Under the pieces are notes generated by a model that was not told where the DNA came from, made no database searches, and saw nothing but the letters and a program-made list of their open reading frames with translations. Position numbers and translations under genes: made by a program. Shown piece by piece: positions 39,162-57,267 of a stretch of 64,000 nt of DNA (positions within the stretch are counted from its first letter, which is position 1; each line of letters opens with the position of its first letter). This stretch comes from Escherichia phage AV124: the sequence record OR352954; one strand, 5' to 3'.

Positions 39162-39680
39162 TTAGTAAGGCCAACGGCGAGGGTATCGACGAGGAATTCC
39201 GGGTACTCCAGTCTGTGGAATTATGCCACCCACATCGAAAGGTCCACGGGAGTTTCTGTCGTATTTAACACGGTTGAACTCGTCTTCACGAACGCCCCCA
39301 ACGATAACAAGGCCTCTGACCGCACTTAAGCAATCATTGACATAGTCAGGGTTTTCAAGCAGCCAGTCGAGGAAGTCTTTCCAATTCTGGTAAGGAGAAC
39401 CACCTTTAATCTGGATAGTTTCATCACCAATCTTTTCAAGGCGATCCGTGATTGATGCCTCTCCTGTGTTCACTTCCTGAAGAATCAACCAACGTACCAC
39501 GTCAACAAGGGTATTGTAAATAACGTAGTAAACGGTGCATGGCGTGTTATCATCACTGGGGTAATTAGCCTTTGATTTCTCTATTGCCAAAAAGGCAAGG
39601 ATAATCTCGTCGGGTAAGACTTCCGGGGAAATGGACCCAAGGAGCAGGCGGATATAAGCAACAATTTCTTGGTCTGTCAT
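39162..39680 (-). CDS. head completion protein (172 aa)
   Basis: Position. Confidence 0.4.
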   Translation of the reverse strand: MTDQEIVAYIRLLLGSISPEVLPDEIILAFLAIEKSKANYPSDDNTPCTVYYVIYNTLVDVVRWLILQEVNTGEASITDRLEKIGDETIQIKGGSPYQNWKDFLDWLLENPDYVNDCLSAVRGLVIVGGVREDEFNRVKYDRNSRGPFDVGGIIPQTGVPGIPRRYPRRWPY

Positions 39681-39804
39681 TTTCGCTCCTTCAAGCTCTT
39701 CTATTTATCAATATCTTATCATAGAACGTCGATTTTGTCATCAAAAACACTTGACATCGTGGAACAGGGTGCTATTCTCAAAGAAAATTATTGAGGAGAA
39801 TCCC

Positions 39805-40203
39805 ATGAAAGCAGTAATAGCCGGTGTTATCACAGCCATCGTTGTCTCGGGTGGACTTATCTACTTTATGAAAACCAACCCCAATATGAACAAATTCGAC
39901 GATGTTTCTTCAAGCTGGTTGTCGGCTGAAGAAAAAACAGAGGCCATTCATCGGATTGCTGGGATGAAATGCGATACAGAATTCAGAAAGGCATTCATTC
40001 CCGGCACTCTGACGACGCAGACAGGTATGTTAGATGAGATGGAAGAACAAGAAGATAGTTTCCAAGTAATGAGAAATATGGGGATAGTGAACGGTACTGT
40101 TCTTGCAACAGGAACTTACATCTGTAAATATTATAAGGATGGCCGACAACCTTATCTTCAGGTATCTTTGAAACCGGAGGCGAGACCGCTACTAAAAAAA
40201 TAA
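39805..40203 (+). CDS. membrane-anchored protein on the opposite strand (132 aa), moron candidate
   Basis: Start ATG 39805 with RBS GAGGAGAA; N-terminal hydrophobic anchor; the only plus-strand gene inside the minus-strand structural block; TTGACA about 50 nt upstream; hairpin at its 3-prime end. Confidence 0.5.
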   Translation: MKAVIAGVITAIVVSGGLIYFMKTNPNMNKFDDVSSSWLSAEEKTEAIHRIAGMKCDTEFRKAFIPGTLTTQTGMLDEMEEQEDSFQVMRNMGIVNGTVLATGTYICKYYKDGRQPYLQVSLKPEARPLLKK

Positions 40204-40222
40204 GGCCCCGGAGGGCCTTTAT
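40203..40222. terminator. hairpin between convergent genes
   Basis: GGCCCCGGAGGGCC hairpin followed by TTT. Confidence 0.4.
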
Positions 40223-40223
40223 A

Positions 40224-40520
40224 TTACGCCATAATGCCAGCAGCCTTCAGCTTGGAAAGAAGGGCATTAAAGTCGGTAACCAGTCCAGCTACGTCAGTCG
40301 CCACCGTGTTGGCCTGTGTTTCTGCCATTTTAACACCGCCAACCACAGAAGTGGTTGCAGCCACGGGAGCAAAAGTGGTAGGCTTGCCAGTAATGTCGGC
40401 CCATGCCACAGCTCCACCGCCTGCGACAGCGATTACATCAGCGAAGGAAATAACTCCGCCAGTTGCAAGGTCAATCAGTTTTGTACCGTAGACCAGTCCA
40501 GCTACACCAGATGTTGCCAT
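40224..40520 (-). CDS. small Gly/Ala-rich protein, N-terminal paralog of the collagen-like protein
   Basis: N-terminus MATSGVAGLVYGTKLIDLATGG resembles [23 protein letters not shown] of the upstream gene; RBS AAGGAG. Confidence 0.5.
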   Translation of the reverse strand: MATSGVAGLVYGTKLIDLATGGVISFADVIAVAGGGAVAWADITGKPTTFAPVAATTSVVGGVKMAETQANTVATDVAGLVTDFNALLSKLKAAGIMA

Positions 40521-40532: not shown

Positions 40533-41672
40533 TTAGATTGCGGGTAATTGTGTTGCAGATTCAGGTACAACCTGTTCTGCGATTAACAAAATAGTTGAAG
40601 GGATGAATGTTGATCCAACAGCGGAAATCAAACACTGAGTCCCGTTTGTCGCCATATTGCCATTAACATCCACGCTGAACATATTGAGTAAGTTAATTGT
40701 ATCCTGTTGAGATGTACCTTGTACACGAGCTGCCGTTAGTCTGTTACCGACTGAAGGTGGGAAATTTAATTCTATCGCACGGTTACTTGAACTACTCGAC
40801 CAAGTTCCAATCAAATTCAGCTTAAAGTAAACGCTAAAGTTTGAGTTGTATACAATCATCTTATCGACGGTGGTATTGAAGAGCGGAGATAAACTACCGG
40901 AATGGGGTATATTCTTCAGAAGAGTGATAAGATTTGTTTCTGGACCTATCGTTACATCTGTAAGATTTGTCCAAGTAACTTCCACCTTTCTTCTTATACG
41001 AGATTCCGCAGGGGTTCCTGGCTCACCATCATCACCTTTTGGTCCCTCTGGACCCTGAGGTCCAGATGGGCCTTGTGGACCAGCAGGCCCTGTAGGCCCG
41101 ACCGGGCCTGTAGCACCTTGTGCTGCCATTAATGCCCAGTGTGTGGCAGAAGCCGGGTCTCCAGTAGGAGGCACTCCAGTTGACGTCAGTGTGTTGAAAT
41201 ACAATGCCCCGTTGTAAACAGCAGCATCGTTCTCAACATATGTTGTCGTTGAGGAATAGTTACCTTTAAACTCTAGACCCGTAGCCCCAGAAGGTCCCGT
41301 AGGTCCCTGTGGCCCCGTTGGGCCTTGAGGCCCTTGAGGGCCAGTTGGTCCTGCTGGTCCTTCTTCACCTTGAGGCCCTTCCGGGCCTTGAACTCCACGA
41401 GGTCCCTGCGGGCCTTGGGTTCCAGGTATTCCTTGGATTCCCTGAGGACCTGTAGCCCCATCCTGCACATTTATAATCGTTTTTACAGCATCTTGGTCAG
41501 CTGCTTTTAATATCTCTTTACCAATATCAGACGCATCGGTGATAGATTCAACAGTAATCTCACCTGACCCGCCATTCATGATATCATCAAAATCGATCTT
41601 ATTACCAGTCTTCTGACTAACAAGTGTTCTTCCATAAACAACACCAGCTACGCCAGCCGAAGCTATTGACAT
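40533..41672 (-). CDS. collagen-like repeat protein (379 aa)
   Basis: Uninterrupted Gly-X-Y tract ([58 protein letters not shown]) plus a second shorter tract. Confidence 0.7.
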
Positions 41673-42340: not shown

Positions 42341-43354
42341 TTACGCGAAAGTACCAGTCAGTTTAACAACCAGCTCTGGGCGGCAGTTAACTGTCAGGAA
42401 GGAAGTTTCAGACTCTACCTTCTCTTCACGCAGGTAAGCAGAAGATTTGTACCACAGGTACAGTTCTTGTGCCGGAGTATTCGCTTCACGAACATCATCT
42501 GCTGGCGCATAGTGGATCTGGAACATGTTGTCGATACCGCGCGGCAGCATGTAAGCTTCACCGTCCGGGATGTAACCGGAGATATCTTCGATGTACAGAA
42601 CGTTTTTGTGAACGAAGGAACGGTTGTTAGCGTTTTCCTGACCTTCACCAAGACGACGACGCAGCGGCTCTTGAGTAGAGCTGTAGTATTGGTATGCGTT
42701 CATGATCAGCGGGTGAGCGATGAAAGCAGAGAACCATTTACGAGAAGCCAGGACTACGATGTCGTAGTTGTTTCCGTTGTCACCAGCGTTGTCGATGATG
42801 AATGCACGACCATCGTTTTCGAGCAGGTCAGACGGGTCAACTGCAACGTCAGTGAAATCTACGTTAACAACTTCCTGGGTAACACCCCATTCGGTGAAGT
42901 AGTTATACTGAGCGGTCGGGTCCTGCGGTGCCCAAGATTTACCCATGATTGCCTGAAGCATTGCTTTTTCTTTAAGCTGTTCATGAGAAATACGGATACG
43001 ACGAACAACACGTTCAACTACGTCCTGTACAGATTTAGGAGCATCCGCAGTGAAATATTTACGGAAGTTCTGTACGTCTGCCGGAGTGATCTGACGATCC
43101 AGCGGGAAGAACGGGATGTTGAAGTTTTTCAGTTGGGCCTTTTCAGTACCAACGTAGTTACGTTCACCCTGACGACGACGAGCTGGGAAGTCGGTTACAA
43201 CTTCGTCAACACGCTCGATCTGGGCGATAGTAGAGACACCGTGATAAGCCTCGAAAAGGTTCATGTTGGTGATCATACGGTACTGACGAGGTACGATTTC
43301 CAGAGTTGCGCCTAGATCGACGATCTGGAAATCATTAGTGCGTACTACTGCCAT
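42341..43354 (-). CDS. major capsid protein (337 aa)
   Basis: Size, strong RBS AAGGAGA, position after scaffold/protease and before a strong terminator; fold not verifiable by eye. Confidence 0.55.
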   Translation of the reverse strand: MAVVRTNDFQIVDLGATLEIVPRQYRMITNMNLFEAYHGVSTIAQIERVDEVVTDFPARRRQGERNYVGTEKAQLKNFNIPFFPLDRQITPADVQNFRKYFTADAPKSVQDVVERVVRRIRISHEQLKEKAMLQAIMGKSWAPQDPTAQYNYFTEWGVTQEVVNVDFTDVAVDPSDLLENDGRAFIIDNAGDNGNNYDIVVLASRKWFSAFIAHPLIMNAYQYYSSTQEPLRRRLGEGQENANNRSFVHKNVLYIEDISGYIPDGEAYMLPRGIDNMFQIHYAPADDVREANTPAQELYLWYKSSAYLREEKVESETSFLTVNCRPELVVKLTGTFA

Positions 43355-47062: not shown

Positions 47063-48562
47063 TTATAATCGTGTATACATAGTCGGAGCAACAATCCTTG
47101 GGATTACGACAGGTCTGATGATCTCCGTTTTCTCCAGGAAGTTAATACCTGAAGAGATGGCGTCAACCCAATCGTCCTTACGGGACACGGTGCTTCGCTC
47201 GCCATTAAATTTCTCAAGCTCATTCATGAGGGCTTCATATGTCTTTGCATCAAAACTACTACGTACAATACGGACAAAGCCTTGCTGTGCAAGCTGGGCA
47301 AATGGTGCAAAACGAGTAAGTTTCGACTTGTTGCCTGGCGTAGGGTCTTTCTCAACCACATAACCATCCGCGAGCAATGCTCTTGAGCTGGTGAGGAATT
47401 CGCTTATACCAGCTTGGCCTGGGTCAACTGAGAAAATAATCGTTACATCATCGCCATCATGTTCTGCTTGTTTTTTGATAATTGCATCACGTTCGCCAGC
47501 CTTCTTACAGAAGCGGCCCTGCGTCCCGGTAGAATAAGGACCATCATCAACAAAATCTGGGTGATAGTCACCAGAAAGATAATAGAATCCCTCGGTATCT
47601 TTACTTACCTTGACCGATGCAGTAAAGTCAGGGAACTTGTTGCCTGTTGAGCGTTCAGTTCCCGCCTTGTCGTATGGTCTTACAGAAGTGCAGCCTAAAG
47701 GTAGCGTCGCGACTTCTTTCAAGAAAGACCTTTGGAAATAGTTTGCACCTTCTGGGCGAACCTTCCAGTTACCATACAACAGCTGTGCTTTTTCAACTTC
47801 AGGAAGACCTTCAAGAAATGCAAGATAATCTGGGTTGTTTTCCAGCATTGGCGGATTATCGAAAATTGTTGCGCTAATAAACGAGAAGGAGAGCGGCTTA
47901 GGCTTCTTGTGGATATCTTCACCATCCCAGTATCGTTCAATCAATTCTTCTGCGCTATCACCCCAAATGAAATCACCATCACGACGGATGAACCAACGGA
48001 TAACACCATCACGTTCTGGGATAGGATAACCATCCTCGTCGAGATACCAATCTATCAACTCTTTAATCTTATGATCAGGATCAGGGTTACAAGAGATGAC
48101 CATACGGCTTGGGTATTTAGATTCGGAACGTAAACGAGACATCAGATATTCGATCTGCGTCCATTCAAACTGTGTTCCTTCGTCAAACCCTACAAAAGTA
48201 TACTGAAGGCCCTGATGAGAAAGCTTGTCTTTCTCATATTCCATGTGCGACCATTTAACTTTTGCACCCGAAGGGAAGATAGCCTTCAGGTCTTTTTCTC
48301 GGAAGCGCGGCTTCCACTCAGGCGACAATTCACTATAGATACCACGAGCTGTTTCATACAAACCACCCGCACCGACAATCTGCGGTGTAAGTCTTCGGAA
48401 CATGATACAGTTTGAGCGAGGATCATCTATTAAGGCTAAGGGCATAAGTTGCAACAGGTAAGATTTACCTGATCCCGCAGCGCCCCCAATGATCAGGATT
48501 TGCGCCTTGTTTTCCAGGATCATTTTCTGCTTGGGGCTGGCGGGTCCAAAAGTGGTACTCAA
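47063..48562 (-). CDS. terminase large subunit, TTG start
   Basis: Walker A P-loop IIGGAAGSGKS near the N-terminus; TTG start with RBS GGAGGT. Confidence 0.8.
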   Translation of the reverse strand: MSTTFGPASPKQKMILENKAQILIIGGAAGSGKSYLLQLMPLALIDDPRSNCIMFRRLTPQIVGAGGLYETARGIYSELSPEWKPRFREKDLKAIFPSGAKVKWSHMEYEKDKLSHQGLQYTFVGFDEGTQFEWTQIEYLMSRLRSESKYPSRMVISCNPDPDHKIKELIDWYLDEDGYPIPERDGVIRWFIRRDGDFIWGDSAEELIERYWDGEDIHKKPKPLSFSFISATIFDNPPMLENNPDYLAFLEGLPEVEKAQLLYGNWKVRPEGANYFQRSFLKEVATLPLGCTSVRPYDKAGTERSTGNKFPDFTASVKVSKDTEGFYYLSGDYHPDFVDDGPYSTGTQGRFCKKAGERDAIIKKQAEHDGDDVTIIFSVDPGQAGISEFLTSSRALLADGYVVEKDPTPGNKSKLTRFAPFAQLAQQGFVRIVRSSFDAKTYEALMNELEKFNGERSTVSRKDDWVDAISSGINFLEKTEIIRPVVIPRIVAPTMYTRL

Positions 48563-48651: not shown

Positions 48652-48942
48652 TCACTTTTGAGGTGTAAATATGTTACGAATGTATGCCTGAAGGATAAGC
48701 AACTTGCTACGTGTATCTGCTGCTTCAAGATTATTTTTCTTAACAATAGCACTGTTTTTAGCGTTATCAGCACCATAGGGAAGTGGTGTTGGGTCAGAAG
48801 GGGGAATCATCGCGTGAGCAGGCGGCTTAGAAAGCACCTCAGAGGGATTAAACTTCTCAACCACTGGAACTACCTTCTGTGGAGACTCGCATCCAACAAG
48901 CATGATTACAGAGAGGAATATGGCAAGCAAACTCTTTCTCAT
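48652..48942 (-). CDS. o-spanin (outer-membrane lipoprotein, Rz1-like)
   Basis: Signal peptide with lipobox LVGC; Pro-rich mature part; overlaps the i-spanin stop by 4 nt. Confidence 0.65.
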   Translation of the reverse strand: MRKSLLAIFLSVIMLVGCESPQKVVPVVEKFNPSEVLSKPPAHAMIPPSDPTPLPYGADNAKNSAIVKKNNLEAADTRSKLLILQAYIRNIFTPQK

Positions 48943-49343
48943 TTAACCCCCAAGCTTTCATTATAGATATCAACAAAGTCGTTATCCAGCCCAAACTTTT
49001 TACCCGCTTCAGATTTGTTATATGCCTGTTGTTTTTCATCGAGTCGGGATCTAAGTAAATCATTCTTAGCCTTCTCTTCTGCAAGCTGGCGACTCAGTTC
49101 ATCAGAGAAGTCTTGCTGCCCATTTTTGAAATCTTGATTTGCATATTTGTTGTTTCTCATTTGCAGAACCCATTTGTTATCCGTATCATTAACCCCACGG
49201 CTATAGGCCTGCTGTATTTGGTCATCATACCACCACTTAACTTCAAAAGCGCCCCACAGGAGCGCCAGAGAAAGGACAGCAATGATAACCAGTTTGGTGT
49301 GTCCCTTTATAAAGGTCCAAACCACACTGATAAAATTTATCAT
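48939..49343 (-). CDS. i-spanin (Rz-like)
   Basis: N-terminal TM helix followed by charged coiled-coil periplasmic domain; ATGA overlap with upstream gene. Confidence 0.6.
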   Translation of the reverse strand: MINFISVVWTFIKGHTKLVIIAVLSLALLWGAFEVKWWYDDQIQQAYSRGVNDTDNKWVLQMRNNKYANQDFKNGQQDFSDELSRQLAEEKAKNDLLRSRLDEKQQAYNKSEAGKKFGLDNDFVDIYNESLGVK

Positions 49344-50797
49344 GAGATATCCCCATCACAATCTAATAATTCAACAATAGTCACCTTATTCCGAGGAGCC
49401 TTATCTTCTCGGTTTACAGACACTCGCCCATCTCCCTCGTACTCAAGGATAAGCGGGTCTTCCACGATAACCTTAAACAGACAAGCACCAGGTTCTATAC
49501 CCCCAACGTGCCAACTCCCCTGCACCCCATTCTTGCATAGCAGCTTATACCTCTCTTGTGCAGCATCAAGATCAAAATAAATACTGATCTTATCTAGCAT
49601 CTCTGGATTGTCGATGCTATTGCTATTAAGGCCGAATACGTGTTTTTCGGTATGCGCTTGCATCATGTAAAAATGCACAGCACTAGATACAGCCCAGAAC
49701 TCCTTAAAGTACAGGCGATCGGTGTTTTTACGCAGGCGTTGGAAAACATTGAAGATATCTTTAGCTTCAAGATTGAAACGCCGTTGCCCTTTACGCTTGT
49801 CGGTGATAGTGGCAATCGTACTGATAGTAATATCCCCTGCGTTATCCAGTTTATCAAATAATCGTTCAAATGAAAACGGTTCTTTTGTATCGAAGAGTTC
49901 TTCAACGTTTGTCCCGTACATACCACTAAGATGCTTTTTGGCATCCTCCCAGCTTTCCATTTTGAGACCTGCAACGGCAACACCCAACTTCATTGTTTCT
50001 CGACGGGAGATTGTATACCCACGGGCCTCGTACTTTGACGCTCGGAGCATACTGATGATCGGGTAGTCTGTCGCTGGATTAAGAACCAACACCTTCTGTG
50101 CAGCATGTTTAAGAAAACGACTGTCAAACACCCATGTTTCATCACCAAATGAGAAGGCACCCATATTGATGGTATAGTCAAACTTATCAAAGATCTGCCC
50201 AGCGTTCTCAAATACCGAGAATGCAATGCATTGCATCACCGGATTAGAACCCTCTGAAAACATAATGCTTTTGTCTGTCATGCCGATATTACGAACATAT
50301 GAGACTTTCTCCTTTCTACTTTCGAGCAGTTTTTCAATACCATCCCAAGTCGATTCAGAGATATCAGACAGATCAAAAGGGCAGTCACTGGCAAACTTAT
50401 CTTCCATCTCCACGATCTCTTGCTTAGACACTTTCTGAGAAAGAACCTTGAATCTTGGCGCACGGGATTCCCATACCTCTTTCCCATTGTCTAAAATGAA
50501 GAAATCACGATAAACACGTTTCTCTTCATTGTATCCCTTCGTTTTAGGCGACAGGTCATGTTCACCTTTTCGTAGGTCTATGTCGATCATATAAGTAATA
50601 AAGATCTCTAGGTCATCCCATGAACGGAAGTACAGGTCGAGATCATTAACTTCCCGGTTGGTAAAGAGAGCCGTGATAGCGCCTCCTGCGATTATAACAT
50701 CGAGGCTGCGAAGGATATGGTAAATATCCTCAGAGAAAAAACTTTTTAGTAAACGGTATTCTCGAAGATGTTCACTCTTCTCGTAAGTGTGGATCAT
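49340..50797 (-). CDS. Pol-beta-superfamily nucleotidyltransferase, CCA-adding-enzyme-like head motif (485 aa)
   Basis: Start at ATG 50797 (MIHTYEK) with RBS AAAGGAGACC; motif VIIAGGAITALFTNREVNDLDLYF (GGA, 11 residues, DxD) has the same spacing as the tRNA nucleotidyltransferase / poly(A) polymerase head domain but lacks the RD of GGxVRD. Confidence 0.55.
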   Translation of the reverse strand: MIHTYEKSEHLREYRLLKSFFSEDIYHILRSLDVIIAGGAITALFTNREVNDLDLYFRSWDDLEIFITYMIDIDLRKGEHDLSPKTKGYNEEKRVYRDFFILDNGKEVWESRAPRFKVLSQKVSKQEIVEMEDKFASDCPFDLSDISESTWDGIEKLLESRKEKVSYVRNIGMTDKSIMFSEGSNPVMQCIAFSVFENAGQIFDKFDYTINMGAFSFGDETWVFDSRFLKHAAQKVLVLNPATDYPIISMLRASKYEARGYTISRRETMKLGVAVAGLKMESWEDAKKHLSGMYGTNVEELFDTKEPFSFERLFDKLDNAGDITISTIATITDKRKGQRRFNLEAKDIFNVFQRLRKNTDRLYFKEFWAVSSAVHFYMMQAHTEKHVFGLNSNSIDNPEMLDKISIYFDLDAAQERYKLLCKNGVQGSWHVGGIEPGACLFKVIVEDPLILEYEGDGRVSVNREDKAPRNKVTIVELLDCDGDIS

Positions 50798-50829
50798 TCT
50801 GGTCTCCTTTAGTAAGTTACTTTTAGAGT

Positions 50830-50864
50830 GTACCAGAAAAAGAAAAGCCCCGCAAGAGCGGGGC
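50830..50864 (-). terminator. rho-independent terminator between tRNA array and nucleotidyltransferase gene
   Basis: On the minus strand: hairpin GCCCCGC-TCTT-GCGGGGC followed by TTTTCTTTTTCT. Confidence 0.55.
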
Positions 50865-50908
50865 GAGGCAAAGGAGAGGAGATATAATAATTTATTGTTA
50901 TTAGAATT

Positions 50909-50984
50909 TGGTTGCGAGCAGCGGAATCGAACCCCTCTGAACAAGCTTATGAGACTCGTGAATTCACCAGAATTCTAGCTCGCA
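50909..50984 (-). tRNA. tRNA-Met/Ile2 (anticodon CAT)
   Basis: Cloverleaf read by eye: acceptor TGCGAGC/GCTCGCA, D-arm GAAT-TCTGGTGA-ATTC, anticodon stem CGAGT/GCTTG with wobble pairs, loop CTCATAA, T-loop TTCGATT; CCA encoded. Confidence 0.7.
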
Positions 50985-50990
50985 ATTGTT

Positions 50991-51067
50991 TGGCGGGACG
51001 GGGTGGATTCGAACCACCGACACCATGATCTTCAATCAAGTGCTCTACCAAACTGAGCTACCGACCC
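50991..51067 (-). tRNA. tRNA-Phe (GAA)
   Basis: D-arm GCTC-AGTTTGGTA-GAGC, anticodon loop TTGAAGA, T-arm GGTGG-TTCGAAT-CCACC; CCA encoded. Confidence 0.75.
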
Positions 51068-51073
51068 GATGTG

Positions 51074-51158
51074 TGGTGGGCAAGGAGAGACTCGAACTCT
51101 CACGTCATAGGACGCCAGAACCTAAATCTGGTGCGTCTACCAATTTCGCCACTTGCCC
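51074..51158 (-). tRNA. tRNA-Leu (TAG)
   Basis: Anticodon arm CCAGA-TTTAGGT-TCTGG, long variable arm, T-loop TTCGAGT; CCA encoded. Confidence 0.75.
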
Positions 51159-51403
51159 TAATCGATCCTTCGGGAGAATGCCACCCTCGGACAAATACCA
51201 TGATAAGCACTTATAGGCAATATACTCATCAATCCTCGCTCCGTTTTGATATCGTTACCGCCACAAGGACGCATTGCGAACCATCAATATCCGAAGACTC
51301 GCCTTATCGTTGTACACCGAGTCGGGCTTCCTCTTTATTAGTTTGCTCTGTTACGCCACACGTAAATCCTGCAAGCCAGAAGGTCTCTACAGGAGAGCAA
51401 ATA

Positions 51404-51476
51404 TGGTGTGGATGGAAGGACTCGAACCTACATCAAACGGCTTCGTAGACCGTTGCCTGTCCGTCAGGACACCCAC
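51404..51476 (-). tRNA. tRNA-Arg (ACG)
   Basis: Anticodon arm ACGGT-CTACGAA-GCCGT, T-loop TTCGAGT, acceptor GTGGGTG/CATCCAC; CCA encoded. Confidence 0.75.
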
Positions 51477-51482
51477 ATAATT

Positions 51483-51559
51483 TGGTCTCCATAGAGTGAC
51501 TCGAACACTCAACCTCCTGGTCCCAAACCAGGCGCTCTACACTATTGAGCTACACGGAG
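51483..51559 (-). tRNA. tRNA-Pro (TGG)
   Basis: D-arm GCTC-AATAGTGTA-GAGC, anticodon arm CCTGG-TTTGGGA-CCAGG, T-arm GAGTG-TTCGAGT-CACTC; CCA encoded. Confidence 0.8.
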
Positions 51560-51657
51560 AGAAGTGCAGAATTTTAATTATCCCAGACACTGCAACTGGT
51601 ATTGCTGGCTAGCTAATAAGTTCTCCAAGCAAAGTTTTAATTTGCAAGGAGGATGTT

Positions 51658-51734
51658 TGGCGGGACCGAAGGGAATCGAACCCTCATTTTCCGCATCGAC
51701 AGTGCGGCACCATTACCTTGTCAGCCACGGCCCC
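51658..51734 (-). tRNA. tRNA-Asp (GTC)
   Basis: Anticodon arm CCGCA-CTGTCGA-TGCGG, T-loop TTCGATT, acceptor GGGGCCG/CGGTCCC; CCA encoded. Confidence 0.8.
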
Positions 51735-51741
51735 ATAAATT

Positions 51742-51826
51742 TGGCGACGAGCGTAGGAATTGAACCTACATAGAGCTAATGCTCGCGGATTAACAGTCCG
51801 CCGTTCTACCAATGAACCAGCTCGTC
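51742..51826 (-). tRNA. tRNA-Asn (GTT) with enlarged variable region
   Basis: D-arm GTTC-ATTGGTA-GAAC and anticodon arm GCGGA-CTGTTAA-TCCGC; variable region is 15 nt with a GAGC-ATTA-GCTC mini-hairpin; CCA encoded. Confidence 0.65.
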
Positions 51827-51886
51827 ATTTAAATACTTTATCAGTGAAAACAACCTTTTGCAAGAATTATTTTAACTGATTTAATT

Positions 51887-51962
51887 TGGCGGGAAGGGAA
51901 GGATTTTAACCCATCGTCTCTTCGCTTAAAAAGCGAATGCCTGACCGCTCGGCTACCTACCC
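51887..51962 (-). tRNA. tRNA-Lys (TTT)
   Basis: Anticodon arm TTCGC-TTTTTAA-GCGAA, T-loop TTAAAAT; acceptor has one mismatch; CCA encoded. Confidence 0.65.
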
Positions 51963-51970
51963 ATATTGTT

Positions 51971-52059
51971 TGGAGGAGAGCAACAGAATCGAACTGTCAC
52001 CGTATCTCTACGGTGGGACCGGGTTCAAACCGGAGCCTGCACCATGCAGCCTGCTCTCC
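51971..52059 (-). tRNA. tRNA-Ser (TGA)
   Basis: Anticodon arm CCGG-TTTGAAC-CCGG, long variable arm, T-loop TTCGATT; CCA encoded. Confidence 0.7.
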
Positions 52060-52064
52060 AAAAT

Positions 52065-52150
52065 TGGCGGAAGATGCAAGGGTTGAACTTGCACACCCTT
52101 TCGGATGGCGGTTTAGCAAACCGCTGTGGCTACCATTTCACCAATCTTCC
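52065..52150 (-). tRNA. tRNA-Ser (GCT)
   Basis: Anticodon arm GCGGT-TTGCTAA-ACCGC, long variable arm, T-arm GCAAG-TTCAACC-CTTGC; CCA encoded. Confidence 0.75.
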
Positions 52151-52296
52151 AATTGTTCTTTAATTTCTTTACGAAGATCTGCTTTTTCTTTCGCACGAGT
52201 AATAGGGACTGATTGAATCTCTTCTGCAACACCACAGTTACTACCGTGAAGTCTACAGCGTCCAAACACTTTCTTGCAACGCAAAAGTTTCTGCAT
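52138..52296 (-). CDS. small Cys-containing protein inside the tRNA array (52 aa)
   Basis: Start at internal ATG 52296 (MQKLLRCKKVFGRCRLHGSNCGV...) with RBS GGAGG at 4-nt spacing; three Cys in 13 residues; the 3-prime end of the frame runs into the adjacent tRNA-Ser. Confidence 0.35.
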   Translation of the reverse strand: MQKLLRCKKVFGRCRLHGSNCGVAEEIQSVPITRAKEKADLRKEIKEQLEDW

Positions 52297-52311
52297 AAAT
52301 CCTCCATAAAG

Positions 52312-52401
52312 TGGCGGAGAAGGAGAGAATTGAACTCTCAAGCCGTTTTACCAGTCAGCACCTTTCCAAGGTGTTTTCGTCACCTATCGATTTGCTTCTC
52401 C
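52312..52401 (-). tRNA. atypical type-II tRNA, possibly tRNA-Ser (GGA)
   Basis: Acceptor GGAGAAG/CTTCTCC and T-arm GAGAG-TTCAATT-CTCTC are clear; candidate anticodon arm ACACC-TTGGAAA-GGTGC; D-arm irregular; 90 nt; CCA encoded. Confidence 0.45.
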
Positions 52402-52405
52402 ATAT

Positions 52406-52482
52406 TGGGGTGGCTAGTGGGACTCGAACCCACATAGGACTGCCTCACAAGCAGTGTCATTATCCAGTTATGATATAGCCAC
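52406..52482 (-). tRNA. tRNA-His (GTG)
   Basis: Anticodon arm ACTGC-TTGTGAG-GCAGT, T-arm GTGGG-TTCGAGT-CCCAC; CCA encoded. Confidence 0.7.
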
Positions 52483-52554
52483 ATCAAAAGGCACTCCCAG
52501 CTTTCGGGTGAATTTCAAGAGCGGCTGCGCAACCACTTGAAGTACCTTTTGATA

Positions 52555-52630
52555 TGGCAGGAAGATCAGGACTTGAACCTGAACTACGGATTTCAAAGAC
52601 CCGTGTGCTAACCAATTACACCATCTTCCT
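52555..52630 (-). tRNA. tRNA-Gln (TTG)
   Basis: Anticodon arm CGGGT-CTTTGAA-ATCCG, T-loop TTCAAGT, D-arm GTGT-AATTGGTTAG-CACA; CCA encoded. Confidence 0.75.
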
Positions 52631-52785
52631 ATAATCGGTGAGGGCGCCTGAAACCGAGCCAGGCTAAGTATTGGACTGCAATCCTCAACTTATTTTGTTG
52701 CCGCCATGCTTACTTATGACCGACAAGAGTTCCCGTTGCAGCGGTAGATCATAGTCATTTTCAACATCCGGTCGCCCCCATTATT

Positions 52786-52859
52786 TGGAGCGTCTAGAGG
52801 GAATCGAACCCTACTCTGCGAGGCTTGGAAGGCCTGCGACACACCTCGTGCTTAGACGC
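52786..52859 (-). tRNA. tRNA-Trp (CCA)
   Basis: Anticodon arm AGGCC-TTCCAAG-GGCCT, T-loop TTCGATT; CCA encoded. Confidence 0.7.
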
Positions 52860-52866
52860 TTTAAAT

Positions 52867-52941
52867 TGGTGGGAGTATCTGGGATCGAACCAGAGACCTC
52901 TCGATTATCGGTCGAGCGTTCTACCGCTGAACTATACTCCC
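52867..52941 (-). tRNA. tRNA-Ile (GAT)
   Basis: D-arm GTTC-AGCGGTA-GAAC, anticodon arm CTCGA-CCGATAA-TCGAG, T-arm TCTGG-TTCGATC-CCAGA; CCA encoded. Confidence 0.8.
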
Positions 52942-53074
52942 ATTAATTGGTGCGCCCCTTTATAAAAATGTCTTCAAGCGGAGTCTTTATTGAAACAATA
53001 AATTTACTCACTCACCTAATCTTATTTTTACTCAGATGGACGTCTTTAGCGGAGCGTCCTCCACCTTCTTCGTT

Positions 53075-53161
53075 TGGTACGCCGTGATAGAGTCGAACTA
53101 CCCGAGCCTTTTGAGCAACAGATTTACAGTCTGTCCCGCTACCCCTACGGTCTAACGGCGC
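53075..53161 (-). tRNA. tRNA-Tyr (GTA)
   Basis: Anticodon arm ACAGA-CTGTAAA-TCTGT, long variable arm, T-loop TTCGACT; CCA encoded. Confidence 0.7.
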
Positions 53162-53163
53162 AT

Positions 53164-53514
53164 TTAGCCTTGTTTGAACTGAACAATATCTGTTGTGAAT
53201 GGCTTACTCATAGGAGTAGATTTCTTATCATCAACATTAGTTGTTTCAGCTTCTTCATTCTCTTCATCGAAGTAATCAGAAAGCATTTGTTCACCTTTCT
53301 CAATTACAAATCGAGCAATATTTTCCCTGATGTTGTCCTTTGTTGTGGCGCTTGTCATAAGGTCTTTTAGCACTTTATGAGCATCAGGAATCATAGCAAT
53401 CATATTGGTCTTAAGGTCAAGGATATTCTTCTCAAGCTGAATAGCATTAGACTCTTCTTTAAGGGGTCTACCTTTTCCTCTACGACGCTTTGTAAGTTGT
53501 TGTTTTACTGCCAT
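53164..53514 (-). CDS. hypothetical acidic protein inside the tRNA array (116 aa)
   Basis: ORF with ATG start; Lys/Glu-rich. Confidence 0.5.
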   Translation of the reverse strand: MAVKQQLTKRRRGKGRPLKEESNAIQLEKNILDLKTNMIAMIPDAHKVLKDLMTSATTKDNIRENIARFVIEKGEQMLSDYFDEENEEAETTNVDDKKSTPMSKPFTTDIVQFKQG

Positions 53515-53599
53515 AATAACCCCACTTATTAATATTATCAGATTTAAATTTATCTGTCAAGGGTCATTTTATCATTTTTTATAAAAATATTCAACAACT

Positions 53600-53674
53600 T
53601 GGAGCACGGTAGGTGAATCGAACACCTGACATTTCTTTTGCAGAGAAAGCTGTTGCCACTCCAGCAACCGTGCT
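53600..53674 (-). tRNA. tRNA-Cys (GCA)
   Basis: Anticodon arm TTTCT-CTGCAAA-AGAAA, T-arm AGGTG-TTCGATT-CACCT; CCA encoded. Confidence 0.75.
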
Positions 53675-53789
53675 TTCGGGGGACCCGATTATTTCAATTC
53701 GCTTCCACACATTCGGGTCAAGACGTGTCCTATAGTCTTTCGACGCTTCCACAGCTCGGAGTAAACCCGTCCCGGCTGTCCTGTGAATT

Positions 53790-53871
53790 TGGCGAAGGCG
53801 GCAGGATTCGAACCCGCATACTCCAATTACTCGATTAACGACGGGTTAGAAGCCCGTTGAGATACGCCCTC
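53790..53871 (-). tRNA. atypical tRNA-like gene (anticodon-like loop TCT, no recognisable D-arm)
   Basis: Acceptor GAGGGCG/CGCCTTC and T-arm GCGGG-TTCGAAT-CCTGC are clear; only one further hairpin ACGGG-CTTCTAA-CCCGT, followed by a 23-nt unpaired region; CCA encoded. Confidence 0.4.
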
Positions 53872-53877
53872 TTAAAC

Positions 53878-53966
53878 TGGTGCGGGATGAGGGATTCGAA
53901 CCCTCAAGGCCTAGAGGCCTACGAAGTCTTAAGCCTCGTGTGTACTGCCAATACCACCAATCCCGC
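53878..53966 (-). tRNA. tRNA-Leu (TAA)
   Basis: Anticodon arm CGAGG-CTTAAGA-CTTCG, long variable arm, T-arm GAGGG-TTCGAAT-CCCTC; CCA encoded. Confidence 0.75.
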
Positions 53967-54148
53967 AGAAATCTATTTTGTGAAGTCCCGATGTCCTGAC
54001 AACCGCCGTTGTCTCTCCGAAGCGCCTCTACTTGCGAAGAAGAGCCTACGCCATCCCTTTCATCAACTTGATATCAAAGCCGACACAGAGATCACACCCC
54101 ACTAGATGCAGGAGATTTTAAGTGTTTCAGAACCTCGCAGAATAGATT

Positions 54149-54257
54149 TGGAGCAGGGTGGTGGAATCTAACCACCTATGTATTTAGCCATGCTGTTAGT
54201 TCTGGCATATTTTTCAGGTCTGGATGGACCTCGCGGTTGACAAACCGCCTACCCTGC
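54149..54257 (-). tRNA. oversized tRNA-like gene (109 nt) with internal insertion
   Basis: Acceptor GCAGGGT/ACCCTGC, D-arm GCGG-TTTGTCAA-CCGC, T-arm GGTGG-TTAGATT-CCACC; stem AGGTC/GACCT closes a 6-nt loop; about 37 extra nt before the T-arm; CCA encoded. Confidence 0.35.
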
Positions 54258-54259
54258 AT

Positions 54260-54334
54260 TGGCTTCTCGAACAGGAATCGAACCTGTACCGTCCCTATCG
54301 TGGGACCGCTCTAACCAAAGTAAGCTATCGAGAA
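54260..54334 (-). tRNA. tRNA-like gene with 6-nt anticodon-position loop
   Basis: Acceptor TTCTCGA/TCGAGAA, D-arm GCTT-ACTTTGGTTA-GAGC, T-arm ACAGG-TTCGATT-CCTGT; stem GTCCC/GGGAC closes loop ACGATA; CCA encoded. Confidence 0.5.
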
Positions 54335-54340
54335 ATTGTT

Positions 54341-54416
54341 TGGTGCTCGCAGTAGGACTTGAACCCACGACCTTCTCCTTACAAGGGAGTTGCTCTACCA
54401 ACTGAGCTATACGAGC
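54341..54416 (-). tRNA. tRNA-Thr (TGT)
   Basis: D-arm GCTC-AGTTGGTA-GAGC, anticodon loop CTTGTAA, T-arm GTGGG-TTCAAGT-CCTAC; CCA encoded. Confidence 0.75.
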
Positions 54417-54817
54417 AAGAAATGCTGTTTCCGATTAACAGCCTGGAGGAGTCAGTTAGCCATATCTTGTGAGCTAAGATCCTATATCCAGGATTTAAGT
54501 AATCAAAGAAATTTTAGCTTTATGGTTTAGAAGTTTCAAGTTTAAACATTAAGCTTTGAACGATAATCTTTGAATGCTGAATGTTGAAGTCTTTCGAATT
54601 CGCGATTCGACAATTTCGATCAAGCCGCATCATTGTGCGGTCTGACGGAAAGATATGTTTAAGTATCATCCTATACGATTATGTTCGGAGCAGTTTAACC
54701 TCCGGCCCCGGTAGAGGCAAGATGTTTCTGACTTCGCTAACCAAAAACAGCATTTAAAAACTTTACCAGCTATCCACAGGAATTACAAGATGTTAATCAA
54801 GAATTCCTGCAAATATT

Positions 54818-55465
54818 TTAGATTGATCCTTCAATCTCTACTTCAGTCCGTGCATTTGACTCGGAAAGAACAAAGTCAACGTTAGACTTAAAGTCTTCAA
54901 TCTCTGCTTCCAGAGAACGAATGCGATCTGCCAGGCCCAGTGGATCGACAATGGAAGGAGTTCCCATGCTACGAACTGGCGCTTCTACTACAGCCAACTG
55001 TGCAGCGTCTGGCGCTTTATCACGTTGGACATATGGAGCACGAGCTGCTTCAAGCTTCGCTTCGAATTCCTGTGTATCACGGTTCAGGCGAACCTGAGCA
55101 TGATTATACTGAGACTTCAGTTTGCCAAGCAGAAGCTCTTTGAAAACGATGGTGCGTTTACGCTCAATCGCCTGAGCTACGGTCATAGACTCGCCAGCGA
55201 TCTCAACTTTTGTTACAGCGTTTGACTGAACAACTTTCGCCTTCAGGTCGTCGCGAACAGCCAGAAGATCCTGAACACCCTGGAAGTCTGCCTGAGCAGA
55301 TTTCTCGAAGTCCTCAACGCTCTGGATAGAGCCTGGGATCTGACGGTTTGCGTCAGTGCCTTTCGCGATGTGAATCGTGTTCAGCGCTTCGATACGCTTC
55401 TGAATCTTTTCCTCAACCTTGGTCAGGGTAGCCAGAGCGCGGGTTACAGACATCTTAGTAGACAT
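54818..55465 (-). CDS. coiled-coil protein (215 aa)
   Basis: Ala/Glu/Lys/Arg-rich heptad-like sequence. Confidence 0.5.
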   Translation of the reverse strand: MSTKMSVTRALATLTKVEEKIQKRIEALNTIHIAKGTDANRQIPGSIQSVEDFEKSAQADFQGVQDLLAVRDDLKAKVVQSNAVTKVEIAGESMTVAQAIERKRTIVFKELLLGKLKSQYNHAQVRLNRDTQEFEAKLEAARAPYVQRDKAPDAAQLAVVEAPVRSMGTPSIVDPLGLADRIRSLEAEIEDFKSNVDFVLSESNARTEVEIEGSI

Positions 55466-55539
55466 AGAATTCTCCTCTCATGAAATTTAAAATTTAAGTT
55501 ACTTCAAATATTTGCCGACATCCGTGTCGGCACTACGCA

Positions 55540-56151
55540 TTAGTTTTTGCCAGTATTAACAACTACGCCCTGGCGGTTAGCATCAGCTTTTGCGATTTCC
55601 AGACGGGTTTCGCGTTCAGCCTTCAGATCACCACGCGCTGCTTCAAGCTGTTCGGTCAGCATTGCAATGCGGTCATCCTTAGCCTTGCTATTAGCAGTAA
55701 GTTCTGCAATTGCAACCTTGTGAGCAGATTCCAGATTTGCCTTAACCGCATTCAGTTCGATTGCAGCGCTACGTTTAACGTCGGCAACTGCGCTTTCTAC
55801 AGCTTCAGCATTGTTCTGCTGAGAGATCGCCAGCTCTGCACGAAGGTCTTCAACAACACCCGGTTCTACAGCTACAAGGCCGCGAGATTTCAGGATAGAG
55901 TTCAGAACGGAATCTTCGTTTTCCAGAACTTTGATCTTCAGCTTGGATTTTTCTTCAGCCAGTTTTTCGTTGAACTGAACTTCAATTTGTCCCAGTTCCT
56001 GCTGCTTAAACTGAATTTCCTGACTGATCTTTTCAGACCCTTCTGCCAGAGATTGCAGTTCAGCGACTACTTTAGTCAGACCAGTAGCGGCAGTGGTTAC
56101 TGCTTTAGTGGCACGTTCAGTTACGGAAATTACAGTTTTAGAATCAGTCAT
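55540..56151 (-). CDS. coiled-coil protein (203 aa)
   Basis: Ala/Glu/Lys-rich heptad-like sequence. Confidence 0.5.
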   Translation of the reverse strand: MTDSKTVISVTERATKAVTTAATGLTKVVAELQSLAEGSEKISQEIQFKQQELGQIEVQFNEKLAEEKSKLKIKVLENEDSVLNSILKSRGLVAVEPGVVEDLRAELAISQQNNAEAVESAVADVKRSAAIELNAVKANLESAHKVAIAELTANSKAKDDRIAMLTEQLEAARGDLKAERETRLEIAKADANRQGVVVNTGKN

Positions 56152-56189
56152 TAAGTTATCCTTTGCGTTAAATTAGGTTTTAAATACTA

Positions 56190-56330
56190 CACTTACAGAT
56201 TGTGTTTGTCAAGCGAATCTTTGATTATTTCTTCGGTGGTAGGGTTGTTTTCAAACCATGACCAATAATACCAAAGAACAAGCAGGAAAGAGATCACTGA
56301 CATGATGATGAAGATAACACCGACACTCAT
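56190..56330 (-). CDS. small membrane peptide (46 aa)
   Basis: Below the track cutoff; translated by eye (MSVGVIFIIMSVISFLLVLWYYWSWF...); ATGA overlap with upstream gene. Confidence 0.4.
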
Positions 56331-56515
56331 CGTACAACGTCCTTAATGGAGTCACAAACTTCACCAACGACGTCTGCGGTAGGTGATACGACAATCTCAT
56401 CAGCGGCGTCAAAAACTTCTGCGGCTACATCTACAAAAGGTTCTGCAACAGTTGCAGTGACAACAACAGCAGTACCAACAATATCGCCAGCCATACGTAA
56501 TAATGTCCCTAACAT
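56327..56515 (-). CDS. small acidic protein (62 aa)
   Basis: Start at internal ATG (MLGTLLR) with RBS AAGGAGAA. Confidence 0.45.
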   Translation of the reverse strand: MLGTLLRMAGDIVGTAVVVTATVAEPFVDVAAEVFDAADEIVVSPTADVVGEVCDSIKDVVR

Positions 56516-56642
56516 TTTGTTCTCCTTTTGGTTCCGATTTGAAACGAGAGCACTTTCGTCCATTTAAGCTATCGCCCTGTGCCACTACGCGAGCCGGTCC
56601 AGCAAGAACGGGAGTCGAACCCGTATCTCTCTCATTTCAAAT

Positions 56643-56717
56643 TTGGTGGGGCATGAAGGATTCGAACCTTAGACAAACCGATTAAGAGTCTGCTACTCTA
56701 CCACTGAGTTAATACCC
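56643..56717 (-). tRNA. tRNA-Lys (CTT), anticodon stem imperfect
   Basis: Acceptor GGGGTAT/ATGCCCC, D-arm ACTC-AGTGGTA-GAGT, T-loop TTCGAAT, anticodon loop CTCTTAA with one stem mismatch; CCA encoded. Confidence 0.6.
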
Positions 56718-56782
56718 CGAAATAAGATCCGTGTTTTTAAAGACGTTTCACGGAATCGTCATTGTTCCCCATGCCGGAGGAA

Positions 56783-57094
56783 TTATTTTTTCTTCTTACC
56801 ATTTGGAGCTACGGTTTCAATAACCTTAGCTTCCTTCACTTTACCAGCACGTTCACGTTTTGTCTTACCTGTGCGAACACGGTAAGATGCAGAGATAATC
56901 TGACCACCCTCAATGCGGGTTTCTGACTTGTATTCACCCTTACGGCGATCAAATACCGAAACAGTCTTCTCTACACCACCAAGACGTACATCATGCGGAG
57001 CAGAATGCGTCTGAGTAGACTTTGACTCAAACTGGAAAGGCTGTTTGATAGCGTCAATAGCAGATACTTTCTTAGTAGAATTTTTCTTAGTCAT
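56783..57094 (-). CDS. basic hypothetical protein (103 aa)
   Basis: ORF with Lys/Arg-rich termini. Confidence 0.5.
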   Translation of the reverse strand: MTKKNSTKKVSAIDAIKQPFQFESKSTQTHSAPHDVRLGGVEKTVSVFDRRKGEYKSETRIEGGQIISASYRVRTGKTKRERAGKVKEAKVIETVAPNGKKKK

Positions 57095-57186
57095 AATTTT
57101 CTCCTTTGCATTTTATTTGGGAATTTCTCCCGTTTATGTTCATGAGGATATTAACTCAATCAATTATCCTCGTCAACATTTTTTAA

Positions 57187-57264: not shown

Positions 57265-57267
57265 CTT

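What the first reader, a model, noticed from the sequence alone, without database searches (positions are those of the whole stretch)
39751..40222. Single opposite-strand gene inside the structural block, with its own promoter-like and terminator-like signals
A 132-aa protein with an N-terminal membrane anchor is the only plus-strand gene in 38 kb of minus-strand structural genes. A TTGACA element lies about 50 nt upstream and a GC hairpin follows it. This arrangement is typical of morons that act on the host envelope.
Basis: seen in the sequence. Interest (0 to 1): 0.4.

Follow-up and report, generated by a model that had tools for sequence, protein, structure and literature searches.

The report
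Conserved early membrane-protein gene between head/neck operons
A real, conserved phage gene for a small inner-membrane protein with a cystatin-like domain probably facing the periplasm sits backwards between the head and neck gene blocks of a Klebsiella rV5-type phage, with a host-type promoter of its own; its function is untested, so this is a modestly interesting accessory gene.

Summary
ATG 39805..40203 (+) encodes a 132-aa protein and is the only plus-strand gene in a 38.7-kb minus-strand structural block of a Mydovirus-type Klebsiella phage (Vequintavirinae, about 97% to KNP2/Mydo). The gene is under purifying selection (dN/dS 0.04-0.18). It occupies the same slot, between the head-fibre and adaptor genes, in Mydovirus, Seunavirus, Avunavirus and two metagenomic lineages. 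It is absent from rV5, Hena1 and CR8.

In 11 phages CTTGACA and the G, T, A and final T of a TGnTAnnnT extended -10 are invariant, while the spacer varies freely. The hairpin shows three compensatory pairs. However, it is the ancestral head-operon terminator: it is stronger on the minus strand, squeezed between two convergent stop codons, and used in both directions.

My best reading is an early-expressed, membrane-tethered periplasmic binding or inhibitor protein, most likely protecting the infected envelope in the manner of superinfection exclusion. The function is inferred, not shown. The moron-like anatomy is supported. Recent acquisition and "its own terminator" are not.

The parts
39707..39741 (-). 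Divergent minus-strand promoter-like element (ATGACA-N17-TG-A-TAAGAT) ahead of the adaptor/neck-tail operon. It does not belong to the plus-strand gene but shares the 124-bp intergenic region with it.
   Evidence: Found by the scan (39741..39713, TG before the -10). The core TATGATAAGATATTGAT is unique in the window. It is almost invariant in 11 phages. Analogous promoter-like sequences follow the terminator in CR8 and Hena1, which lack the plus gene.
39743..39778 (+). Sigma70-type promoter of the plus-strand gene: A-tract 39743-47, -35 TTGACA 39751-56, 16-nt spacer, extended -10 TG 39770-71, -10 TATTCT 39773-78. Predicted transcription start near 39785 (inferred).
   Evidence: Phylogenetic footprint in 11 phages with a free spacer. 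TTGACA-N16/17-TAnnnT sites, several with an upstream A-tract, head genes only in the non-structural flanks of the window. A sigma70-like early promoter consensus AAAA(N3-4)TGTTGAC(N17-19)TATAAT has been reported for the sister genus Certrevirus (PMC7344957).
39793..39798 (+). Shine-Dalgarno GAGGAG, 6 nt before the ATG
   Evidence: Sequence. A GGAG-type motif is kept in the orthologues. It is annotated as an RBS in phage Mydo.
39805..40203 (+). CDS, 132 aa. Transmembrane helix about aa 3-23 (nt 39811-39873). Conserved P26. SSWLS-EEK motif aa 36-44. Helix 41-61. Strands 69-81, 85-96, 99-110, 117-122. Invariant C56 and C107.
40194..40200 (-). A7 run. It encodes the C-terminal Lys-Lys of the plus gene and, read on the minus strand, forms the U-tract of the head-operon terminator.
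   Evidence: Sequence. The terminator scan reports the minus-strand tail ATTTTTTTAG. An A-rich run precedes the hairpin in all 11 phages, with four invariant A columns.
40202..40219 (.). Bidirectional rho-independent terminator hairpin (7-bp stem, 4-nt loop), shared by the plus gene and the convergent head-fibre gene (stop codon at 40224-40226).
   Evidence: Covariation is seen in 3 of 7 pairs. In PVP-SE1 it is annotated as a terminator on both strands. Equivalent hairpins follow the head block in rV5, Hena1 and CR8.

Best explanation
This is a real accessory gene. In an ancestor of the Mydovirus/Seunavirus/Avunavirus clade it was inserted, in reverse orientation, into the short gap between the terminator of the head operon and the promoter of the neck-tail operon.

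It is read by host RNA polymerase from its own extended -10 sigma70 promoter. That promoter is of the same type as those heading genes in the non-structural flanks of the window, so the gene is probably expressed early, independently of the late structural genes around it. Transcription stops at the pre-existing head-operon hairpin, which works in both directions.

The product is a bitopic inner-membrane protein: a 2-5-residue cytoplasmic N-terminus, one transmembrane helix, and a periplasmic domain of about 100 aa. That domain has a cystatin-like fold (one helix packed on a four-stranded sheet) and is probably stapled by a C56-C107 disulfide.

The most likely mode of action is as a membrane-tethered binding or inhibitor module in the periplasm, close to the inner membrane, protecting the infected cell's envelope. 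My preferred version is superinfection exclusion, meaning a block on the entry machinery of incoming related phages, analogous in role to T4 Imm and Sp.

Shown here: the gene, selection on it, synteny, conservation of the promoter and terminator, and the predicted fold. Inferred: early timing, topology, the disulfide, and the entire function. The confidence of 0.4 is for the whole statement including the function. For the anatomical part alone (gene, insertion site, promoter, shared terminator, fold) I would put it at about 0.85.
For: Gene reality:
- dN/dS is 0.04-0.18 in five orthologue pairs.
- It has a Shine-Dalgarno and conserved length.
- The fold prediction is confident, pLDDT 89.4.

Insertion at an operon boundary:
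- rV5, Hena1 and CR8 lack the gene. All three have a terminator hairpin after the head block; a promoter-like sequence before the adaptor gene was noted in Hena1 and CR8.
- All 11 carriers have the gene in the same slot.

Promoter:
- CTTGACA and the G, T, A and final T of TGnTAnnnT are invariant across phages whose proteins are only 24-45% identical. The leading T is kept in 10 of 11. The spacer is variable.
- Inside the 38.7-kb block this is the only such site that heads a gene. Similar sites head genes in the flanking non-structural regions.
- A comparable sigma70-like early promoter is described for Certrevirus (PMC7344957).

Terminator: 98.7% of cells are paired and 3 pairs covary.

Topology: the hydrophobic 19-mer has a mean Kyte-Doolittle score of 2.1-2.4. 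The N-flank carries net +1 to +2 and the C-flank -1 to +1. Two Cys are invariant in all 18 aligned sequences down to 24% identity.

Fast divergence: 30-43% identity, against 53-81% for the four neighbouring neck genes in the same phage pairs. This fits a protein locked in an interaction that changes between lineages.

Not part of the lysis cassette: the Rz-like spanin pair is at 48652-49343, and the holin and endolysin of KP12 are placed elsewhere (PMC9902359).
Against: - There is no experimental or homology-based link to any superinfection-exclusion protein.
- The fold match is generic. Foldseek against PDB finds nothing at E <= 0.001, and BFVD returns only the protein itself.
- There is no PADLOC, Pfam or NCBIfam hit.
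- Early timing is inferred from promoter type only. No transcript data were found.
- The neck-operon promoter next door also looks sigma70-like, so a sigma70-like sequence alone does not prove early expression.
- The positive-inside signal is weak.
Confidence: 0.4

Rival explanations
1. Inhibitor of a host periplasmic enzyme. The cystatin/latexin/PepSY-like domain, held at the inner membrane, blocks a periplasmic protease or peptidoglycan hydrolase. That enzyme would otherwise damage phage proteins in transit or destabilise the wall before the programmed lysis.
Against: The cystatin signature motifs (QxVxG in loop 1, PW in loop 2) are absent from the sequence. There is no sequence-profile link to any inhibitor family. 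Host periplasmic enzymes are highly conserved among Klebsiella, Salmonella and Escherichia, whereas this protein diverges faster than its neighbours.
Confidence: 0.2
2. Lysis-timing regulator of the antiholin type. It would be a signal-anchor (possibly releasable) protein whose periplasmic domain binds the holin's periplasmic part and delays lysis, as T4 RI does with holin T.
For: The architecture resembles RI: a very short N-terminus, a transmembrane segment with 37-47% Gly/Ala/Ser/Thr, and a small periplasmic domain. Lysis genes in this clade are dispersed (spanins at 48652-49343; PMC7344957 notes that Certrevirus has no classic cassette). The holin could not be identified for KPP-1 (PMC9862379).
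Confidence: 0.15
3. Morphogenesis helper. It would be a membrane-bound factor with the globular domain in the cytoplasm that assists head or neck assembly. This would explain why the gene sits between the head and neck modules.
For: Its position is between the head-fibre and adaptor genes in every carrier. The charge bias across the membrane segment is weak.
Against: rV5, Hena1 and CR8 build the same virion type without it. It is on the opposite strand, with a promoter of the type that heads non-structural genes. The invariant Cys pair suits an oxidising compartment. It evolves much faster than the structural neighbours.
Confidence: 0.07
4. Not a functional gene: a chance ORF in a spacer that is conserved only for its regulatory signals.
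For: The spacer does carry two promoters and a terminator.
Against: dN/dS is 0.04-0.18, with many synonymous changes. Length is conserved at 131-137 aa and the Shine-Dalgarno is kept. The fold is confident. Homologues at 24-31% identity occupy the same slot.
Confidence: 0.02

Closest known systems
Morons of lambdoid phages (for example the HK97 gp15 superinfection-exclusion moron, cited via PMC9902359 and from my own knowledge of Juhala/Hendrix and Cumby et al.)
   Same: An extra gene between genes that are adjacent in relatives. It has its own sigma70 promoter and is followed by a terminator. It encodes a small single-pass inner-membrane protein.
   Different: The host phage is, as far as I know, virulent rather than temperate (not tested here). 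The gene's composition is not atypical. It is fixed across several genera. Its terminator is borrowed from the neighbouring operon. There is no sequence similarity.
T4 early envelope-protection proteins Imm and Sp (Spackle) (own knowledge)
   Same: Small, early-expressed, envelope-located proteins of a virulent myovirus that are not part of the virion.
   Different: There is no sequence or fold similarity. The function here is untested.
Cystatin / latexin / monellin-like fold
   Different: Sequence identity is 0-10%. The QxVxG and PW motifs are missing. The sheet has four rather than five strands. The protein is membrane-anchored. Foldseek is not significant.
VirB8/TraE/DotI-type bitopic proteins of type IV secretion systems
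   Different: The periplasmic domain is about 95 aa rather than about 140 aa and has far fewer helices. There is no Pfam VirB8 hit. The context is a phage, not a secretion system.
PHROG 11434 ('membrane protein', category 'moron, auxiliary metabolic gene and host takeover')
   Same: Full-length match, E 1e-67. This is the family the protein belongs to.
   Different: The family has no tested function. Some database members are misnamed 'adenosine deaminase' or 'putative portal protein'.

Membership tests
Moron (Hendrix/Juhala sense) | Extra gene lying between two genes that are adjacent in related phages | tested here: met
   rV5_ev147, Hena1 and CR8 go from the head block straight to the adaptor gene. 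Eleven other phages carry the gene in that slot.
Moron (Hendrix/Juhala sense) | Own promoter upstream and terminator downstream | tested here: met
   The promoter footprint is conserved. The hairpin shows covariation. However, the hairpin predates the gene and is shared with the head operon.
Moron (Hendrix/Juhala sense) | Nucleotide composition different from the flanking genes | tested here: not met
   GC is 41.9% and GC3 41.4%, against block means of 44.5 +/- 3.2% and 41.7 +/- 5.3%.
Moron (Hendrix/Juhala sense) | Expressed from the repressed prophage to the benefit of the lysogen | not testable with these tools
   To my knowledge Vequintavirinae are virulent, so the criterion would not apply in its original sense. 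This was not tested here.
PHROG 11434 | Full-length profile match | tested here: met
   E 1.1e-67, residues 1-131 matched to profile positions 4-134 of 134.
Sigma70 extended -10 promoter | -35 TTGACA, 16-18 nt spacer, TGn, -10 TAnnnT | tested here: met
   TTGACA-16-TG-c-TATTCT. The key positions are invariant or nearly so in 11 phages. Activity was not tested.
Rho-independent terminator | GC-rich stem followed by a U-run | tested here: met
   7-bp stem with 5 GC pairs. The U7 tail is on the minus strand; the plus strand has the weaker tail UUUAUAUU. There are 3 covarying pairs.
Cystatin superfamily inhibitors | Cystatin fold | tested here: met
Cystatin superfamily inhibitors | Inhibitory motifs QxVxG (loop 1) and PW (loop 2), or a sequence-profile match | tested here: not met
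   The motifs are absent from the alignment. There is no Pfam hit and no PDB sequence hit.
VirB8-like proteins | Bitopic N-in topology with a periplasmic NTF2-like domain of about 140 aa, and a VirB8 profile match | tested here: not met
i-spanin (Rz type) | N-terminal transmembrane segment plus a periplasmic coiled coil, with a partner o-spanin lipoprotein gene adjacent or embedded | tested here: not met
   The domain is globular alpha+beta and the neighbours are the adaptor and head-fibre genes. The phage's Rz-like pair is at 48652-49343.
T4 RI-type antiholin / T-type holin | Structural or sequence similarity to RI or T; linkage to the holin | tested here: not met
Known anti-phage defence or superinfection-exclusion proteins (PADLOC) | Profile match | tested here: not met
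   No families at E <= 1 for five family members.

The most novel reading that the evidence does not exclude
PHROG 11434 may be a previously unrecognised class of phage envelope effector: an early-expressed, inner-membrane-tethered, disulfide-stabilised cystatin-fold module. It would use a conserved three-part edge (the SSWLS segment plus the E81/Q82 and K111-P116 hairpin loops) to block either the entry apparatus of competing phages or a periplasmic host enzyme. It would have been acquired once by a virulent Vequintavirinae lineage and wired into an existing operon boundary.
Probability: 0.3. Interest if true: 0.5.

Novelty: new member of a known kind. Interest (0 to 1): 0.3.

Why it matters
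If the function is confirmed, it would add a new fold and family to the short list of envelope-protection or superinfection-exclusion proteins of virulent phages. It would do so in a group (Mydovirus/Seunavirus) that is being developed for therapy against Klebsiella and Salmonella. Exclusion between cocktail members matters there.

The locus also gives a clean example of how an accessory gene can be slotted between an existing terminator and promoter and reuse the terminator in reverse.

As things stand, this is an uncharacterised accessory gene that is already catalogued in dozens of GenBank genomes.

Tried and rejected
Foldseek against PDB gave no hit at E <= 0.001. BFVD returned only the protein itself.
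- Profile libraries: Pfam, NCBIfam, PADLOC and PDB sequence searches gave nothing meaningful.
- Wide homology search: a profile search of 1.84 billion representatives found only about five real clusters, all in the same phage slot. The long multi-stretch hits (P0020-P0025, P0027, P0028) look like spurious matches to repetitive proteins; only P0025 was inspected, and it is a repeat. An IMG/VR scan added no new lineages.
- Literature: searches for transcript or functional data on this clade found none. The PVP-SE1 genome paper is not held.
- Rfam: only sub-threshold miRNA noise.
- i-spanin: rejected because of the globular fold and the canonical Rz-like pair 9 kb away. KP12.peg.134/135, named as spanins in PMC9902359, are not this gene, which is peg.125.
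- Lipoprotein: rejected from my reading of the alignment, which shows no conserved lipobox.
- The 150-aa TTG start: rejected because that TTG is the -35 hexamer.
- The minus-strand motif TATGATAAGATATTGAT was tested as a possible recurring late promoter. It occurs only once in the window.

Full report
**What the window is.** The 2 kb around the finding matches Klebsiella/Proteus phages KNP2, Mydo, KB57, KpS8 and others at about 97%. These are classified as Vequintavirinae, genus Mydovirus. The neighbours of the finding are:
- the major capsid protein gene (42341-43354, PF03864);
- a 98-aa head-fibre protein gene (40224-40520, PF11133);
- the adaptor gene (39162-39680, phrog_2663; its metagenomic homologues carry PF26075 Phage_Adaptor_PhiTE);
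- the Neck1, head-completion and tail-sheath genes.

All of these are on the minus strand.

**Checking the observation.**
- *The ORF.* The mechanical ORF starts at TTG 39751. That TTG is part of the TTGACA hexamer.
- *The block.* Minus-strand ORFs tile 12230-50944 (38.7 kb). The only sizeable gap, 39681-40223, contains this gene. The smaller gaps hold nothing credible on the plus strand. In the curated Mydo record this gene is the sole opposite-strand CDS in the fetched stretches between the terminase large subunit and the last tail fibre.
- *The promoter.* TTGACA (39751-56), a 16-nt spacer, TG, and TATTCT (39773-78) are present. A consensus scan alone is not above chance, with 15 hits against 13.5 expected in 10 kb.
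- *The hairpin.* It lies at 40202-40219 and folds at -11.7 kcal/mol on the plus strand and -14.1 on the minus strand.

**Comparative evidence that the signals are real.** I collected the orthologous locus from Ro1, FENT2, PVP-SE1, 4MG, GAP31, EspYZU15, TH18 and Av-05. I added two metagenomic phages found through a profile search (P0019 and P0026).
- In all 11 the gene is on the opposite strand between the adaptor gene and the head-fibre gene.
- In the alignment of the intergenic region, CTTGACA is invariant, and so are the G, T, A and final T of TGnTAnnnT. The leading T is kept in 10 of 11. The 13 or so bases between the two elements are free to vary. This is the expected footprint of an extended -10 sigma70 promoter.
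- The hairpin is paired in 98.7% of cells. Three of its seven pairs show changes on both sides, for example G-C to A-U in TH18 and Av-05 and C-G to U-A in L016. No shuffle out of 500 reaches the observed covariation score, and slid controls collapse.

**Where the gene came from.**
- rV5_ev147 (Vequintavirus), Hena1 (Henunavirus) and CR8 (Certrevirus) have the homologous adaptor gene but no opposite-strand gene. In those phages the head block ends in a hairpin with a T-run. In Hena1 and CR8 a promoter-like sequence follows before the adaptor gene; in rV5 the gap is only 59 bp.
- The head/neck junction is therefore an old transcription-unit boundary. The plus-strand gene was inserted exactly between the old terminator and the old promoter.
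- The hairpin downstream of the gene is that old terminator. Its U7 tail is on the minus strand. Its stem begins inside the plus gene's TAA and ends four nt before the head-fibre stop codon. The A7 run that supplies the minus-strand U-tract also encodes the C-terminal Lys-Lys of the plus gene.
- PVP-SE1's annotators marked terminators in both directions there.
- The minus-strand promoter-like element (ATGACA-N17-TGATAAGAT, 39741-39713) is as conserved as the plus-strand one and occurs only once in the window.

**Is it a gene under selection?** Yes.
- dN/dS is 0.13 against Mydo and Ro1, and 0.04-0.18 in Seunavirus and Avunavirus pairs.
- GC content is ordinary for the block, so there is no sign of recent foreign origin.
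- At the protein level it is the fastest-changing gene in its neighbourhood. It shows 30-43% identity to PVP-SE1, 4MG, Av-05, L013 and L016. The four neck genes show 53-81% and the head fibre 35-83% in the same phage pairs.

**Expression class.** TTGACA-16/17-TAnnnT sites located 25-60 nt before a start codon with a Shine-Dalgarno occur at 1375, 10174, 61785 and, on the minus strand, 60343, 58053, 57176 and 56212. Several of them, including the one at 39751, have an upstream A-tract. All of these sites lie in the non-structural flanks of the window. Inside the structural block only the 39751 site heads a gene. A similar sigma70-like promoter with an A-rich upstream element, concentrated in presumed early regions, has been described for the sister genus Certrevirus (PMC7344957). 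I therefore infer early, host-polymerase-driven expression. No transcript data for this clade were found.

**The protein.**
- *Family.* PHROG 11434, 'membrane protein', E 1e-67. Nothing was found in Pfam, NCBIfam, PADLOC or PDB sequences. A profile search of 1.84 billion representative proteins finds only about five genuine clusters, and IMG/VR adds none. The family is confined to this phage clade.
- *Predicted structure.* AlphaFold2 with a 19-sequence alignment gives pLDDT 89.4. It predicts helix 2-24 (the membrane anchor), short helix 31-35, helix 41-61, strands 69-81, 85-96, 99-110 and 117-122, and a short terminal helix.
- *Conserved residues.* C56 (in the helix) and C107 (in strand 3) are invariant in all 18 aligned sequences down to 24% identity. 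So are P26, S37, E43, F64, Y105 and K111.
- *Topology.* The N-flank of the anchor is net positive (+1 to +2). The C-flank is about neutral. Together with the invariant Cys pair, this favours an N-in, C-out orientation with a disulfide-bonded periplasmic domain. This is an inference. I could not read the model coordinates.
- *Possible binding surface.* By the topology of the fold, the conserved SSWLS segment and the two conserved hairpin loops (E81/Q82 and K111-P116) should lie at the same end of the sheet as the cystatin inhibitory wedge, close to the membrane. This is also an inference.

**What it most likely does.** The features are:
- an early-type promoter;
- no place in the virion gene order of relatives;
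- a membrane anchor;
- a small periplasmic binding-type domain;
- rapid divergence.

These fit a protein that acts on the infected cell's envelope. I rank the candidate roles as follows, with the remainder left for other or unknown roles:

| Reading | Probability |
|---|---|
| Superinfection-exclusion-type role (blocking entry of related phages) | about 0.35-0.4 |
| Inhibitor of a host periplasmic protease or hydrolase | 0.2 |
| Antiholin-like lysis-timing role | 0.15 |
| Cytoplasmic morphogenesis helper | 0.07 |
| Non-gene | 0.02 |

- *Not an i-spanin.* The domain is globular, and the phage's Rz-like pair is at 48652-49343. In KP12 the spanins are peg.134/135, whereas this gene is peg.125 (PMC9902359).
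- *Against the antiholin reading.* No T4 RI, T or Spackle structure appears among the listed structural matches.
- None of the functional readings is tested.

The anatomy is moron-like, and that part is supported. The differences are these:
- The element is old and fixed in a clade rather than sporadic.
- It is compositionally ordinary.
- It is carried by phages that I take to be virulent (general knowledge, not tested here).
- It borrows a pre-existing terminator.

**Verdict.** This is a real, well-defined accessory gene with conserved expression signals and a confident fold. It is already catalogued as a hypothetical membrane protein, and its function is unknown. Interest is modest, at 0.3.

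Noticed in passing
window 40533-41672 (-): A 379-aa protein whose first 35 or so residues resemble the N-terminus of the adjacent 98-aa head-fibre protein. It then has collagen Gly-X-Y repeats (PF01391) and a C-terminal Sf6-type tail-needle knob (PF16532, E 2e-29). All close relatives lose similarity at 40539. No record among 50,697 phage genomes covers 80% or more of the protein; only the knob domain matches, at about 46% identity. It looks like an extra, so far unique, collagen-stalk-plus-knob capsid fibre in a variable slot. The same slot holds an 872-aa collagen protein in L013, a 'tail fiber' in PVP-SE1, and a capsid fibre plus EPS depolymerase in Hena1.
   Followed up: partly
window 39707-39741 (-): A strongly conserved minus-strand extended -10 promoter-like element (ATGACA-N17-TGATAAGAT) ahead of the adaptor/neck-tail operon. 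It occurs once in the window. Analogous promoter-like sequences follow the head-operon terminator in CR8 and Hena1. If active, it would mean this structural operon starts at a sigma70-like promoter.
   Followed up: partly
window 40194-40203: Dual-use sequence. The A7 run encodes the conserved C-terminal Lys-Lys of the plus gene and is also the U-tract of the minus-strand head-operon terminator. The TAA stop codon forms the first two stem bases.
   Followed up: yes
window 50909-57341 (-): An array of 21 tRNA genes just upstream of the structural block. It includes one call with an odd two-base anticodon (tRNA-???, 54260-54334). The first tRNA overlaps the 5' end of the mechanical ORF 49340-50944, so that ORF's true start is probably further in; the phrog_16176 match begins at residue 50.
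   Followed up: no
window 1375, 10174, 61785 (+); 60343, 58053, 57176, 56212 (-): A recurring promoter class, TTGACA-16/17-TAnnnT 25-60 nt before start codons that have a Shine-Dalgarno. Several sites carry an upstream A-tract. The class is confined to the non-structural flanks of the window and resembles the Certrevirus early promoter consensus in PMC7344957.
   Followed up: partly
L006 2938-3342 (phage TH18); Salmonella phage 19 (P0007); L004 2798-2935 (FENT2): Database misannotations of this family: 'adenosine deaminase' in TH18 and in phages 19-1-2 and 24-2-1, and 'putative portal protein' in Salmonella phages 19 and GEC_vB_MG. FENT2 also annotates a 45-aa ORF lying over the conserved promoter region, which is probably spurious.
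   Followed up: no
window 48652-49343 (-): The Rz-like spanin pair (phrog_4297 and phrog_1267) sits inside the minus-strand late block, just upstream of the terminase gene (47063-48562). It is far from any endolysin or holin, so lysis genes are dispersed in this phage (PMC9902359).
   Followed up: partly
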